From contig CAYMIL010000001.1 of NCBI GenBank assembly GCA_964390845.1, positions 11,307 to 75,306 on the forward strand: 64,000 nt of DNA, written 5' to 3'. The DNA is from an uncultured Candidatus Saccharibacteria bacterium. Lineage in GTDB: Bacteria; Patescibacteriota; Minisyncoccia; Phycocordibacterales; CALRHW01. The notes below the pieces were generated by a model, which was not told the DNA's origin, ran no database searches, and saw nothing but the letters and a program-made list of their open reading frames with translations. This document shows positions 38,430 to 40,830 of this stretch, piece after piece (the stretch's first letter is position 1; each line of letters starts with the position of its first letter). The translations under genes were made by a program, and so were the position numbers.

Positions 38430-38996
38430 ATGAATCAGAAAAAACCAGCCGTTGTAAAGTGGGCTCTTATCATAGGTATCACTATTGTTCTTAACCTCTT
38501 TTTCAATTACGCCGCGTCGCTTGTATTTACACAGCCTGAATATAATAATTTCTGCCCTCAAGCTCAGGTGATGCAAGCATTGTCTGACGAGCGTGCGTGT
38601 GTGCAAGCTGGTGGTCAGTGGAATGGATACGCAACGCCTGTTATGGAAAAATCTGCAACGGGACAAACTGTTGCTGTGAGTGGCTATTGCGATCCGCAGT
38701 TTACATGTCGACAAAATTTTGATGCCGCACAAAAAACATATGACAGAAATGTGTTCGTGACACTTGTTGTGCTTGGGGTTCTCTGTATCGCGTACGCTCT
38801 TATTTCCAGAAAAAATGAAGTATTGGCTACAGCGCTGTCCTTTGGAGGTGTGTTGTCGTTTGTTATTGCTTCGATGAGATATTGGTCCCACGCAGACAAC
38901 ATCCTCAAGGTCGTCATTCTTGGTCTCGCGCTTGCGATACTGGTTGGTATTACACTTCGAACATTTAAAGATAGCAGTGAAACAGTACGATCATAA
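38430..38996 (+). CDS. hypothetical membrane protein with Cys-containing extracytoplasmic loop
   Basis: TM at N-terminus and 2 TM at C-terminus. Confidence 0.4.
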   Translation: MNQKKPAVVKWALIIGITIVLNLFFNYAASLVFTQPEYNNFCPQAQVMQALSDERACVQAGGQWNGYATPVMEKSATGQTVAVSGYCDPQFTCRQNFDAAQKTYDRNVFVTLVVLGVLCIAYALISRKNEVLATALSFGGVLSFVIASMRYWSHADNILKVVILGLALAILVGITLRTFKDSSETVRS

Positions 38997-40830
38997 AAAA
39001 GTAGAAAAAAAGTGGCAGGGATTGTGGGAGAAGAAGCAACTTCACGTGGTGGATGATGCTTCAGTCAAACCAAAGTTCTATGCACTCATGGAGTTTCCGT
39101 TTCCTTCTGGAGATGGTCTTCATGTTGGTCATGTACGAGGAAATGTAGCTATGGACGTTGTGGCGCGTAAGCGTCGAGCAGAGGGGTACAACGTACTCTT
39201 TCCGACAGGCTGGGATGCTTTTGGTTTGCCGACAGAAAACGCGGCAATAAAAAACAAAGTATCACCGCAGAAGATTAGTAAGCGCAACACGACAAACTTC
39301 AAAAAACAAATGAAGCGACTCGGGCTATCGTTTGATTGGACACGAGAGATCAATACAACGGACCCCGCATACTACAAGTGGACCCAGTGGTTGTTTCTTC
39401 AGTTTTACAAACACGGCCTTGCATACAAGGCAAAAATGACAATCAATTGGTGTCCGAAAGATAAGATCGGGCTCGCAAATGAAGAGGTGGTTAACGGTTT
39501 TTGTGAGCGTTGTGGCACTGCGGTAGAGAAACGCGATAAAGAACAGTGGATGCTTGCGATTACGAAGTATGCAGACCGACTTGCAAAAGACCTTGATCTT
39601 ACCGAATTTCCAGAACATATAAAAACTCAACAGAGGCACTGGATTGCTGGTCTTCGAGATTGGGTATTTTCTCGTCAGCGATATTGGGGTGAACCTATTC
39701 CAATGGTGCATTGTGAGGCGTGTGGGTGGGTTCCTGTGCCAGAGCAAGAGTTACCCGTTACTCTTCCGCGCGTCAAAAAATATGAGCCGACAGATACCGG
39801 TGAATCTCCACTGGCGGCTATTTCTTCGTGGGTGCAGACAACATGTCCGACATGTGGAGGGAAAGCACAGAGAGAAACAGACACGATGCCAAACTGGGCT
39901 GGTTCAAGCTGGTATTTCCTCCGTTTTATTGATCCTAAAAATACAAACACATTTGCTGATACGGGAAAGCTTGAGCGATGGATGCCGGTGGATTGGTACA
40001 ACGGCGGCATGGAACACACAACATTGCATCTGTTGTACTCTCGATTCTGGAATAAGTTTTTGTTTGATTGTGGTCTTGTGCCCACGACAGAGCCATACAA
40101 ACGTCGCACATCTCACGGCATGATTTTGGGTCCGGATGGAGAAAAGATGTCAAAATCTCGAGGCAACGTCATTAACCCAGATGAGGTGATTATGCATGTT
40201 GGTGCTGATACGTTGCGAGTCTATGAAATGTTTATTGGTCCTTTTGACCAGGCGGTGTCGTGGAGTACCGATTCCATCGCAGGTTCGCGACGCTTTTTGG
40301 AGCGCGTGTGGCGTTTGCAAGAACACGTTTCAAAAGACAATATTTCCGTGTCTGATGCTCTCAACGGATCTGTAGCTAAGGCAATCAAAAAAGTATCTGA
40401 CGACATTGAGCGCGCGGCCTTTAATACCGCAATCTCTGCGCTCATGATTTTGACAAATGAATTTGAAAAAGAGATAGGTGAGGGGAAGAATATTTCTCGT
40501 ATGCAGTATGAAACGCTCTTACAGCTTCTTGCTCCGTTTGCGCCACATATTACCAATGAATTATGGTCGTTGCTTGGCAACAAGACACCACTTGCTTTTG
40601 CGCCATGGCCACAGGCACAGGGAGGGGCGTTTGAATCCCAGACAAAAATGATTGCCGTACAGGTAAATGGTAAGGTGCGAGCCGAGGTAGAGGTGGCAAA
40701 AACAGAGACTGAAGAAGAAATAAGGGCTAAAACACTAGCGTTGCCCGCAGTGTCTAAGTGGCTTGAAGGTAAACAGGTGGTAAAAGTTATATATGTAAAA
40801 GACCGTTTGGTCAATATTGTGCTTCAATAA
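38977..40830 (+). CDS. leuS: leucyl-tRNA synthetase lacking the CP1 editing domain (GTG start; ORF opens at 38920)
   Basis: [13 protein letters not shown], zinc knuckle CERCGT, KMSKS; HWIAG immediately followed by [17 protein letters not shown]. Confidence 0.75.
   Translation: [617 protein letters not shown]

What the first reader, a model, noticed from the sequence alone, without database searches (positions are those of the whole stretch)
38977..40830. Leucyl-tRNA synthetase without a CP1 editing domain
In canonical bacterial LeuRS about 190 residues of CP1 (the post-transfer editing domain) lie between the conserved WIG motif and the Y-R-L-R-D-W-x-x-S-R-Q-R-Y-W-G block. Here the protein reads ...[25 protein letters not shown]..., so the two flanking motifs are adjacent and the enzyme is only ~617 aa. 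A LeuRS that cannot hydrolyse Ile/Met/norvaline-tRNA(Leu) implies tolerated mistranslation or a trans-acting editing factor. This has been reported for very few organisms.
Basis: partly seen in the sequence, partly recalled or inferred. Interest (0 to 1): 0.6.

Follow-up and report, generated by a model that had tools for sequence, protein, structure and literature searches.

The report
Leucyl-tRNA synthetase lacking its proofreading domain
This candidate-phyla (Paceibacteria) bacterium's only visible leucine-charging enzyme has cleanly lost the whole domain that normally removes wrong amino acids from tRNA-Leu; this was known experimentally only from Mycoplasma mobile, and here it appears to have happened several separate times in one bacterial group.

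Summary
Window 38977-40830 (+) is one uninterrupted 617-aa ORF that scores as bacterial LeuRS (TIGR00396, 747 bits against a cut-off of 548) and has no CP1 domain (no PF13603 hit). Against T. thermophilus LeuRS, residues 226-417 (CP1) are missing exactly: the sequence reads WIA-G-LRDW.

The leucine-specific domain is also absent (GPDG remains). That holds for all 120 closest relatives, so it is a lineage trait.

The gene sits at the same syntenic position as full-length CP1+ leuS in related Paceibacteria. It is therefore the housekeeping copy with an in-frame deletion, not an artefact or a paralogue.

The only solved structure with the same domain set is M. mobile LeuRS (3ZIU), but the nearest sequence relatives are CP1+ Paceibacteria enzymes, so the resemblance is convergent.

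Twelve of the 120 closest protein clusters are CP1-less, with four junction types (1, 2, 8 and 15 residues). A flanking-gene tree suggests at least four independent losses.

ValRS and AlaRS in the same window keep their editing domains. No stand-alone CP1 was found.

Verdict: a real new member of a known kind, moderately interesting. Loss of post-transfer editing is inferred from the missing domain. Actual mistranslation is untested.

The parts
38977..40830 (+). leuS: 617-aa bacterial-type leucyl-tRNA synthetase without CP1 and without the leucine-specific domain (the stop codon is included)
   Evidence: ORF. TIGR00396 scores 746.9 bits against a cut-off of 548.4. No PF13603 hit. Aligns end to end with M. 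mobile LeuRS 3ZIU. AlphaFold model pLDDT 87.9, pTM 0.84.
39121..39132 (+). HIGH motif (H49-V-G-H52)
   Evidence: Read from the sequence. H49, G51 and H52 are invariant in alignment A1.
39451..39513 (+). ZN1 module cysteines (C159 ... C176-x-x-C179), retained
   Evidence: Translation. C159, C176 and C179 are invariant in A1.
39640..39663 (+). CP1 excision junction, W222-I-A-G225-L-R-D-W229: one residue (G225) lies between the WIG-type and LRDW motifs, where relatives have 132-360 residues
   Evidence: G225 aligns with Tt R418, so no CP1 or tether residue remains.
39712..39855 (+). Second Zn-type module (C246-x-x-C249 ... C290-x-x-C293), retained
   Evidence: Aligned with Tt 439-487. C246, C290 and C293 are invariant and C249 is nearly invariant in A1.
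40129..40140 (+). Tetrapeptide G385-P-D-G388 in place of the leucine-specific domain
   Evidence: Query 386->390 corresponds to Tt 580->637. All 120 relatives have a 4-residue linker here. M. mobile has GKDG (PMC3643597).
40144..40158 (+). KMSKS loop (K390-S394)
   Evidence: Invariant in A1.
40276..40611 (+). Helical anticodon-binding domain
   Evidence: Pfam Anticodon_1, residues 466-580. Helices 434-532 in the model.
40633..40827 (+). C-terminal tRNA-binding domain
   Evidence: Aligned with Tt 814-876. Beta-alpha-beta elements 556-616 in the model.
38430..38996 (+). Upstream 188-aa predicted membrane protein gene that overlaps the leuS start by 20 nt; the arrangement is conserved in relatives
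   Evidence: The same overlap is seen at L003 (7454-8020 against 8001) and a similar one at L007.
5280..7451 (-). valS: 723-aa ValRS with an intact CP1 editing domain, used as a comparison for parallel loss
   Evidence: NF004349 scores 875.8 bits. Continuous alignment to Tt ValRS 4-706, with VRPET and GTGALKITPAHDKNDFE conserved.
48996..50798 (+). alaS: 600-aa short-form AlaRS that retains the tRNA_SAD editing module
   Evidence: NF002436 scores 709 bits. PF07973 matches at residues 546-593.

Best explanation
This is the organism's housekeeping leucyl-tRNA synthetase. An in-frame deletion has removed the entire CP1 editing domain, including both beta-strand tethers, and joined the two halves of the Rossmann fold through a single glycine.

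Everything needed for leucylation is retained: HIGH, KMSKS, both zinc modules, the anticodon-binding domain and the C-terminal tRNA-binding domain. The enzyme should therefore charge tRNA-Leu. It cannot move a mischarged 3' end to a CP1 hydrolytic site, so post-transfer editing of Ile-, Met- or norvalyl-tRNA(Leu) is lost.

Fidelity then depends on discrimination in the synthetic site, plus whatever tRNA-independent pre-transfer hydrolysis that site supports, as measured for the M. mobile enzyme.

The loss arose within Paceibacteria, independently of Mycoplasma, and similar losses recurred in neighbouring lineages. This suggests weak selection for LeuRS proofreading in these small-genome bacteria.

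Shown: the domain architecture, orthology, integrity of the core, and recurrence. Inferred: absence of editing activity, a raised error rate at Leu codons, and relaxed selection as the cause.
For: **Architecture.**
- There is no PF13603 hit, and Tt residues 226-417 and 581-636 are absent.
- The ORF is continuous, and the identical protein is called on 6 contigs from three sources.
- The AlphaFold model is confident (pLDDT 87.9).
- Foldseek gives a high TM-score in both directions only for M. mobile LeuRS 3ZIU (TMq 0.82-0.83, TMt 0.82-0.88). Other LeuRS structures give TMt of about 0.6.

**Core intact.**
- HIGH, KMSKS and the zinc cysteines are invariant.
- There are only 8 private substitutions at conserved columns, and they are mostly conservative.

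**Orthology.**
- The order YchF - membrane protein - leuS - sigma70_r4/HARE-HTH - DUF8128 - YceG ... alaS is shared with CP1-less P0004, P0049, P0051 and P0090 and with the CP1+NUDIX form P0013.

**Origin within the lineage.**
- The nearest relatives by identity are CP1+ forms (P0002, 70%).
- The window groups with L003 (CP1-less) and L006 (CP1+) at 100% bootstrap on four flanking proteins.

**Recurrence.**
- There are four junction types (1, 2, 8 and 15 aa).
- L007 and L009 group with CP1+ genomes at 82.5% and 79.5% bootstrap.

**Specific to LeuRS.**
- ValRS and AlaRS keep their editing modules.

**Precedent.**
- M. mobile LeuRS lacks CP1 and the LSD, charges tRNA-Leu, and shows only tRNA-independent AMP formation of about 0.16 per second (PMC3643597).
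- M. mobile misincorporation at Leu and Phe codons is estimated at up to 1 in 200 (PMC3553970).
Against: - Only 64 kb of the genome could be read, so a second CP1-containing leuS, or a distant trans-editing protein elsewhere in the genome, is not excluded.
- No activity data exist for this enzyme.
- In M. mobile a nonapeptide at the junction is reported to compensate functionally for CP1 in modulating aminoacylation activity (title of ref. 17, Tan et al. 2012, in PMC3643597). Here only one residue remains, so full activity is assumed, not shown.
- Loss of an editing domain does not always raise the error rate. Some synthetases compensate with a more selective active site (PMC11415595).
- The count of independent losses rests on neighbour-joining trees with moderate support. 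Within the closest trio, a single shared loss still has 20% bootstrap support.
Confidence: 0.8

Rival explanations
1. Editing is kept but supplied in trans: a free-standing CP1-like protein, or another deacylase encoded elsewhere in the genome, clears mischarged tRNA-Leu.
For: Trans-editing factors are established for other synthetases, such as YbaK/ProX and AlaX (background in PMC3973320, listed). Most of the genome lies outside the window. Short PF13603+NUDIX proteins do exist in the database.
Against: A CP1 profile run against the six-frame window hits only ValRS. No neighbour carrying PF13603 is present at the loci of five CP1-less lineages. The two 'stand-alone' CP1-NUDIX proteins I checked on long contigs (P0165, P0158) are pieces of frameshift-fragmented leuS genes in assemblies full of split genes. 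No short protein more than 59% identical to the CP1 of the closest CP1+ relative was found. No YbaK, AlaX or DTD family appears among the annotated window ORFs.
Confidence: 0.08
2. The loss is compensated in cis: the synthetic site has become selective enough, or does enough pre-transfer hydrolysis, that the error rate is near normal, as proposed for some naturally editing-deficient synthetases.
For: The general precedent is cited in PMC11415595. The window LeuRS is about 5 percentage points more diverged from outgroups than its sister lineages, while YchF is not. A few columns differ from the CP1+ consensus in several CP1-less lineages, for example position 257 in 4 of 5 and position 89 in 3 of 5.
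Against: The shared substitutions are few and none was shown to lie in the leucine pocket. Private changes are mostly conservative. The M. mobile enzyme of the same architecture is reported as the likely source of elevated mischarged tRNA-Leu and Leu-codon mistranslation (PMC3553970).
Confidence: 0.15
3. It is an auxiliary or paralogous LeuRS-like protein, for example a resistance or regulatory copy, and a canonical LeuRS is encoded elsewhere.
For: CP1-less LeuRS-like proteins occur in large-genome bacteria, where they are likely second copies: Inquilinus limosus (670 aa) and a Gaiellales cluster in which the simple motif search found no HIGH or KMSKS.
Against: The gene occupies the position of the full-length leuS in related genomes, with conserved flanks on both sides. 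The catalytic motifs are intact. In the protein database the exact sequence is the only member of its 90% cluster, and its nearest relatives are ordinary Paceibacteria LeuRS.
Confidence: 0.04
4. It is an assembly or gene-calling artefact, such as a collapsed region or a chimeric join.
For: This is a metagenome-derived sequence. Some related assemblies are visibly error-prone.
Against: The frame is continuous across the junction with no N. The identical protein appears on 6 contigs from different assemblers. Four other lineages have analogous but differently placed junctions.
Confidence: 0.01

Closest known systems
Mycoplasma mobile LeuRS (PDB 3ZIU; 637-residue chain)
   Same: It is a bacterial-type LeuRS with CP1 replaced by a short peptide and the leucine-specific domain replaced by a G-x-D-G tetrapeptide (GKDG there, GPDG here). 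The two align end to end at 528 bits. It is the only PDB entry that matches in both TM directions. It is the experimental model for loss of post-transfer editing (PMC3643597, PMC3553970).
   Different: The two do not share descent of the deletion. The window enzyme's nearest relatives are CP1+ Paceibacteria LeuRS at 60-70% identity, against about 40% to 3ZIU. The junction is shorter: 1 residue between WI[GA] and L[RQ]DW here, against 11 in M. mobile, including the nonapeptide KEEIDGKIT. The window enzyme keeps both Cys-rich zinc modules. The host is a Patescibacteria lineage, not a Mollicute.
Canonical bacterial LeuRS (T. thermophilus 1H3N; E. coli 4AQ7/4ARC; TIGR00396)
   Same: The catalytic core, HIGH, KMSKS, zinc modules, anticodon-binding domain and C-terminal domain are shared. 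The TIGR00396 score is above its trusted cut-off.
   Different: It lacks CP1 (Tt 226-417) and the leucine-specific domain (Tt 581-636).
CP1+ and CP1+NUDIX LeuRS of related Paceibacteria (e.g. P0013 at locus L006; P0002)
   Same: These are orthologues at the same syntenic position, 66-70% identical over the core, and they also lack the leucine-specific domain.
   Different: They carry 132-200 residues of CP1, or 311-360 residues with a NUDIX domain inserted in CP1. Most have the TTRPDT and AHDxRD editing motifs.
Editing-degenerate synthetases of host-restricted organisms (Mycoplasma PheRS/ThrRS; microsporidian aaRS with truncated editing domains)
   Same: They show the same evolutionary pattern: small-genome, host-dependent organisms lose aaRS proofreading (PMC7373986; PMC11415595).
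   Different: Most of those cases are point degeneration or partial truncation. Here the module is excised cleanly, while ValRS and AlaRS in the same window keep theirs.

Membership tests
Bacterial-type leucyl-tRNA synthetase (TIGR00396 leuS_bact) | Whole-protein score above the curated cut-off | tested here: met
   746.9 bits against a cut-off of 548.4. The next family, ValRS, scores 263 bits.
Bacterial-type leucyl-tRNA synthetase (TIGR00396 leuS_bact) | Class I signature motifs HIGH and KMSKS | tested here: met
   HVGH at 49-52 and KMSKS at 390-394, invariant in A1.
Bacterial-type leucyl-tRNA synthetase (TIGR00396 leuS_bact) | CP1 editing domain (PF13603) inserted after the ZN1 module | tested here: not met
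   No PF13603 hit. Tt 226-417 is absent. A lineage-specific CP1 HMM finds nothing in the ORF.
Bacterial-type leucyl-tRNA synthetase (TIGR00396 leuS_bact) | Anticodon-binding helical domain and C-terminal tRNA-binding domain | tested here: met
   Anticodon_1 scores 72 bits. The alignment runs to Tt 876. The domains are folded in the model.
Bacterial-type leucyl-tRNA synthetase (TIGR00396 leuS_bact) | Leucylation of tRNA-Leu | not testable with these tools
   This needs an enzyme assay. No tRNA-Leu gene lies in the window.
Naturally CP1-less minimal LeuRS (M. mobile type) | CP1 replaced by a short peptide at the WIG / LRDW junction | tested here: met
   The junction is WIA-G-LRDW, one residue.
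Naturally CP1-less minimal LeuRS (M. mobile type) | Leucine-specific domain replaced by a G-x-D-G tetrapeptide before KMSKS | tested here: met
   GPDG at 385-388. M. mobile has GKDG. This feature is shared by all Paceibacteria relatives, including the CP1+ ones.
Naturally CP1-less minimal LeuRS (M. mobile type) | Same overall fold and domain complement as 3ZIU | tested here: met
   Foldseek gives TMq 0.82-0.83 and TMt 0.82-0.88.
Naturally CP1-less minimal LeuRS (M. mobile type) | Common descent of the deletion with the Mycoplasma enzyme | tested here: not met
   The nearest relatives are CP1+ Paceibacteria LeuRS at an orthologous locus, so the resemblance is convergent.
Naturally CP1-less minimal LeuRS (M. 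mobile type) | No post-transfer editing; mischarging of tRNA-Leu | not testable with these tools
   This is inferred from the absence of the domain. A deacylation assay is needed.
Split or trans-editing LeuRS system (free-standing CP1) | A separate gene encoding a CP1-like domain in the same genome or neighbourhood | tested here: not met
   None was found in the 64 kb window or at 5 orthologous loci. The two database candidates checked are gene fragments.

The most novel reading that the evidence does not exclude
Proofreading by LeuRS is dispensable across a whole branch of Paceibacteria. CP1 has been excised independently at least four times, down to a zero-tether junction shorter than any characterised enzyme. 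It has been remodelled in other relatives through a NUDIX insertion or a degenerate threonine-rich motif. These episymbionts would therefore live with a 'statistical' proteome at Leu codons, possibly because they do not make the branched-chain pathway by-product norvaline that LeuRS editing mainly guards against.
Probability: 0.4. Interest if true: 0.55.

Novelty: new member of a known kind. Interest (0 to 1): 0.4.

Why it matters
- Only one natural LeuRS with CP1 completely removed has been characterised, that of M. mobile. It underpins the idea that reduced-genome parasites tolerate mistranslation.
- A second origin, clearly independent, in the Candidate Phyla Radiation extends that pattern to a very different and very large group of host-dependent bacteria. 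The recurrence across neighbouring lineages strengthens the case.
- The lineages form a natural series of junctions (15, 8, 2 and 1 residues) for testing how much of the CP1 tether a LeuRS needs to stay active.
- ValRS and AlaRS editing are retained in the same window. This gives a way to ask why LeuRS editing in particular is expendable.
- CP1-less LeuRS should also be insensitive to benzoxaborole drugs that act in the CP1 site. This last point is from my own knowledge of that drug class and was not tested here.

Tried and rejected
1. The genome-contig scan with the window protein was meant to fetch related CPR genomes for a species tree and to look for a second leuS. The patterns were too universal, and 80 mostly Clostridia loci came back. 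Only about 10 Patescibacteria loci were usable, and the window's own genome was not among them.

2. The search for stand-alone CP1 proteins used the CP1+NUDIX region of P0013. It returned only proteins of up to about 605 aa. Most are on short contigs or annotated as partial, and the two long-contig cases I checked are pieces of frameshifted leuS genes. I rejected these as evidence for trans editing.

3. My first regular-expression count suggested that about a third of CP1+ relatives lack the editing motifs. Inspecting the columns showed that most are conservative variants (TTRADT, SAHDERD). Only 19 of 108 have a truly divergent threonine-rich motif.

4. The screen for convergent substitutions shared by CP1-less lineages gave a few candidates (positions 89, 203 and 257) but nothing I could tie to the leucine pocket.

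5. The neighbour-joining LeuRS tree was too star-like to count losses, so I replaced it with a flanking-gene tree.

6. Li et al. 2011 and Melnikov et al. 2018 are not held in the library, so their content is cited only through papers that quote them.

7. One Pfam call failed because of bad coordinates.
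Full report
**1. The observation**

The ORF listed as 38920-40830 (+) holds a GTG at 38977. From there the product is 617 aa and begins [14 protein letters not shown], which aligns from residue 1 of T. thermophilus LeuRS. The gene callers behind the public records use the same start.

The DNA across the critical point is continuous, with no N and no frame change. It reads tgg att gct ggt ctt cga gat tgg, which is W222 I A G L R D W229.

The family searches agree:
- Pfam reports tRNA-synt_1 and Anticodon_1 but not PF13603.
- NCBIfam assigns bacterial LeuRS (TIGR00396) at 746.9 bits against a cut-off of 548.4. 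The match is in two pieces, and the second piece starts at profile position 411.

Against T. thermophilus LeuRS 1H3N the alignment falls into three blocks:
- query 1-224 = Tt 1-225
- query 225-386 = Tt 418-580
- query 390-616 = Tt 637-876

Two modules are therefore missing. CP1 (192 residues) is gone completely, including its two beta-strand tethers, and G225 aligns with Tt R418. The leucine-specific domain (about 56 residues) is replaced by GPDG.

A profile built from the CP1 regions of 46 close relatives, run with all filters off on the six-frame translation of the window, hits only the ValRS gene. There is no cryptic or displaced CP1 in the 64 kb.

**2. It is real and it is the housekeeping gene**

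The identical protein is called on six contigs from ENA, Logan and NCBI assemblies.

The flanking gene order is PGI - ROK - two small ORFs - YchF - 188-aa membrane protein (overlapping the leuS start by 20 nt) - leuS - sigma70_r4/HARE-HTH protein - DUF8128 - YceG - Mrr-like - PD-(D/E)XK - ... - oligopeptidase F - AlaRS. The core of it (YchF ... leuS - sigma70_r4/HARE-HTH - DUF8128 - YceG) recurs in two kinds of genome:
- genomes with other CP1-less LeuRS (P0004 in GCA_046350795.1, P0049 in GCA_017881075.1, P0051 in GCA_964476215.1, and P0090)
- a genome whose LeuRS is full length with CP1 plus NUDIX (P0013)

So the short gene is the orthologue of an ordinary leuS that has been deleted in place.

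The catalytic signatures (HVGH 49-52, KMSKS 390-394), both cysteine clusters and about 180 other positions are invariant across 53 aligned relatives. The window protein has 8 private changes at columns that are at least 93% conserved, against a median of 3, and most are conservative.

An AlphaFold model built on that alignment is confident: pLDDT 87.9, pTM 0.84, and no segment below 50.

In a Foldseek search of the PDB every top hit is a bacterial LeuRS. Only M. mobile LeuRS 3ZIU matches with a high TM-score normalised on both query and target (0.82-0.83 and 0.82-0.88). All the others give about 0.6 on the target side, because they carry extra domains.

**3. Where it came from**

The 120 best database relatives are Paceibacteria/Patescibacteria LeuRS, and they fall into three length classes:
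- 12 of 607-629 aa, without PF13603
- 49 of 750-850 aa and one of 889 aa, all with PF13603
- 58 of 921-1059 aa, 56 of them with PF13603 plus a NUDIX domain (PF00293)

All 120 have a four-residue linker in place of the leucine-specific domain. That absence is a lineage trait and is not part of this event.

The 12 short forms have four different junctions:
- WIA-G-LRDW (the window)
- WI-KN-L[HR]DW (P0049, P0090)
- WIG-PAGDGTFH-LRDW (P0051)
- WIG-KKEEMVDGKKVTTFN-IHDW (an eight-member clade around P0004, which keeps the two tether strands)

By identity, the closest relative of the window protein is a CP1+NUDIX form (P0002, 70%).

On four flanking proteins (1586 columns, neighbour joining, 200 bootstraps):
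- The window groups with L003 (CP1-less, 15-aa linker) and L006 (CP1+NUDIX) at 100%.
- Inside the trio, window+L006 has 76% support and window+L003 has 20%.
- L007 (2-aa linker) groups with CP1+ genomes L011/L013 at 82.5%.
- L009 (2-aa linker) groups with CP1+ L084 at 79.5%.
- L008 stands apart.

If CP1 is not regained, this means at least four losses and probably five. One shared loss for the window and the P0004 clade remains possible.

The LeuRS of the window is about 5 points less identical to outgroups than its two sister lineages are. YchF shows no such effect. This suggests a modest acceleration specific to the enzyme.

M. mobile LeuRS is only about 40% identical, so the shared architecture is convergent.

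**4. What it implies for function**

Everything required for activating leucine and transferring it to tRNA is present. The module that hydrolyses mischarged tRNA-Leu is absent.

For the M. mobile enzyme of the same architecture, published data show three things:
- It aminoacylates tRNA-Leu.
- AMP formation with norvaline is about 0.16 per second and is not stimulated by tRNA, which means only tRNA-independent pre-transfer editing (PMC3643597).
- Misincorporation at Leu and Phe codons in the proteome is estimated at up to 1 in 200 (PMC3553970).

By analogy, the most likely state here is a LeuRS that charges tRNA-Leu without post-transfer proofreading. Whether the error rate is really raised is inference. 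Some editing-less synthetases compensate through a more selective active site (PMC11415595). I found only weak hints of shared substitutions among the CP1-less lineages.

A junction nonapeptide is reported to compensate functionally for CP1 in modulating M. mobile LeuRS aminoacylation (title of ref. 17 in PMC3643597). The window enzyme, P0049, P0090 and the unrelated P0323 have junctions of one or two residues. If they are active, the tether is not needed at all.

**5. Parallel loss and trans factors**

- The ValRS in the window (5280-7451, -) aligns continuously with T. thermophilus ValRS 4-706. Its CP1 is present, and so are the motifs VRPET and GTGALKITPAHDKNDFE.
- AlaRS (48996-50798) is a 600-aa short form that still has the tRNA_SAD module.
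- None of the other annotated ORFs belongs to a known trans-editing family.
- A search of the 5.8-billion-protein set with the CP1+NUDIX region of P0013 returned only proteins of up to about 605 aa. The best were 45-51% identical, and most are on short contigs or annotated as partial.
- The two long-contig 'stand-alone' examples I checked are pieces of leuS genes broken by frameshifts, in assemblies where neighbouring genes are also split.

So there is no support for a trans-acting CP1, although most of the genome could not be examined.

**6. Comparison with what is known, and novelty**

Complete natural loss of CP1 from LeuRS is an established phenomenon with one characterised example and a crystal structure. 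The general link between reduced, host-dependent genomes and loss of synthetase editing is also established.

In the paper library I found nothing that connects Patescibacteria with loss of LeuRS editing.

A HMMER scan of 1.84 billion cluster representatives shows that short, single-block LeuRS-like proteins are not rare. About eight of the best 150 are of this kind. They include MAG proteins labelled Bacillota, Gaiellales and 'Nanoarchaeota', with junctions of 2-14 residues. An Inquilinus limosus protein of 670 aa is another example.

I therefore class the finding as a new member of a known kind. The added value is an independent origin in the CPR, recurrence within one group, and the shortest junction seen.

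**7. Verdict**

- The consequence, tolerated mistranslation or compensation, remains open.
- Interest is 0.4.

Noticed in passing
L006 8001-10886 (P0013); also P0002, P0003 and about half of the best 120 relatives: Many Paceibacteria LeuRS carry a NUDIX hydrolase domain (PF00293) inserted inside CP1, after the AHDxRD..FAKKY segment. This gives 311-360 residues between WIG and LRDW. Its distribution on the tree is patchy. I found no description of a LeuRS-NUDIX fusion in the paper library.
   Followed up: partly
Relatives P0015, P0025, P0029, P0031, P0032, P0036, P0047, P0050, P0052, P0053, P0060, P0072, P0076, P0087, P0091, P0096, P0102, P0104, P0105: Nineteen of 108 CP1-containing relatives have a strongly divergent threonine-rich editing motif (NSVPQT, DSIPQT or SAHFEA in place of TTRPDT) while keeping the HDxRD aspartates. 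These may be editing-impaired enzymes that still carry the domain.
   Followed up: partly
L010 6995-9007 (+), Inquilinus limosus SA128 NZ_JAHVDK010000037.1: A free-living, GC-rich alphaproteobacterium encodes a 670-aa LeuRS-like protein, 44% identical to the window enzyme. It also lacks CP1 (WIG-RSEEVGPDGTRRVTYR-LRDW), keeps an LSD-like insertion and has no zinc cysteines. It is probably a second copy.
   Followed up: no
Proteins P0336/P0393 (Gaiellales MAGs, 670 aa, a cluster of 30), P0314/P0372 (Bacillota MAGs), P0323, P0340, P0378: Further CP1-less LeuRS-like clusters exist in other phyla, with 2-14-residue junctions. In the Gaiellales cluster my simple motif search found no HIGH or KMSKS, so it may not be an active synthetase.
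   Followed up: partly
Window 5280-7451 (-): The ValRS ends at the position equivalent to T. thermophilus ValRS residue 706. The C-terminal coiled-coil domain (about 150 residues) is missing, while the editing domain is intact.
   Followed up: no
Window 38977-38996; L003 8001-8020: The leuS start overlaps the end of the upstream 188-aa membrane-protein gene by 20 nt, and the overlap is conserved in relatives. This suggests translational coupling. The membrane protein has no Pfam match.
   Followed up: no
Representatives P0241-P0390: Many of the closest LeuRS cluster representatives are 1100-1350 aa, with the extra length lying between the two core halves. The CP1 region in these bacteria therefore ranges from 0 to more than 500 residues.
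   Followed up: no
L090 and L091 (ENA ERZ25039515 / ERZ25039529): These long contigs have many genes split into 2-4 adjacent pieces (leuS, YchF, the tRNA methyltransferase, the sigma-like protein). This is typical of indel errors in long-read assemblies. The pieces appear in protein databases as apparent stand-alone domains.
   Followed up: yes
Window 11123-15545 (+): A type IV pilus-like cluster is present: a T2SSE ATPase, a T2SSF platform protein, two proteins with N-terminal methylation motifs and a 465-aa ORF with no Pfam match. Such clusters are common in CPR bacteria.
   Followed up: no
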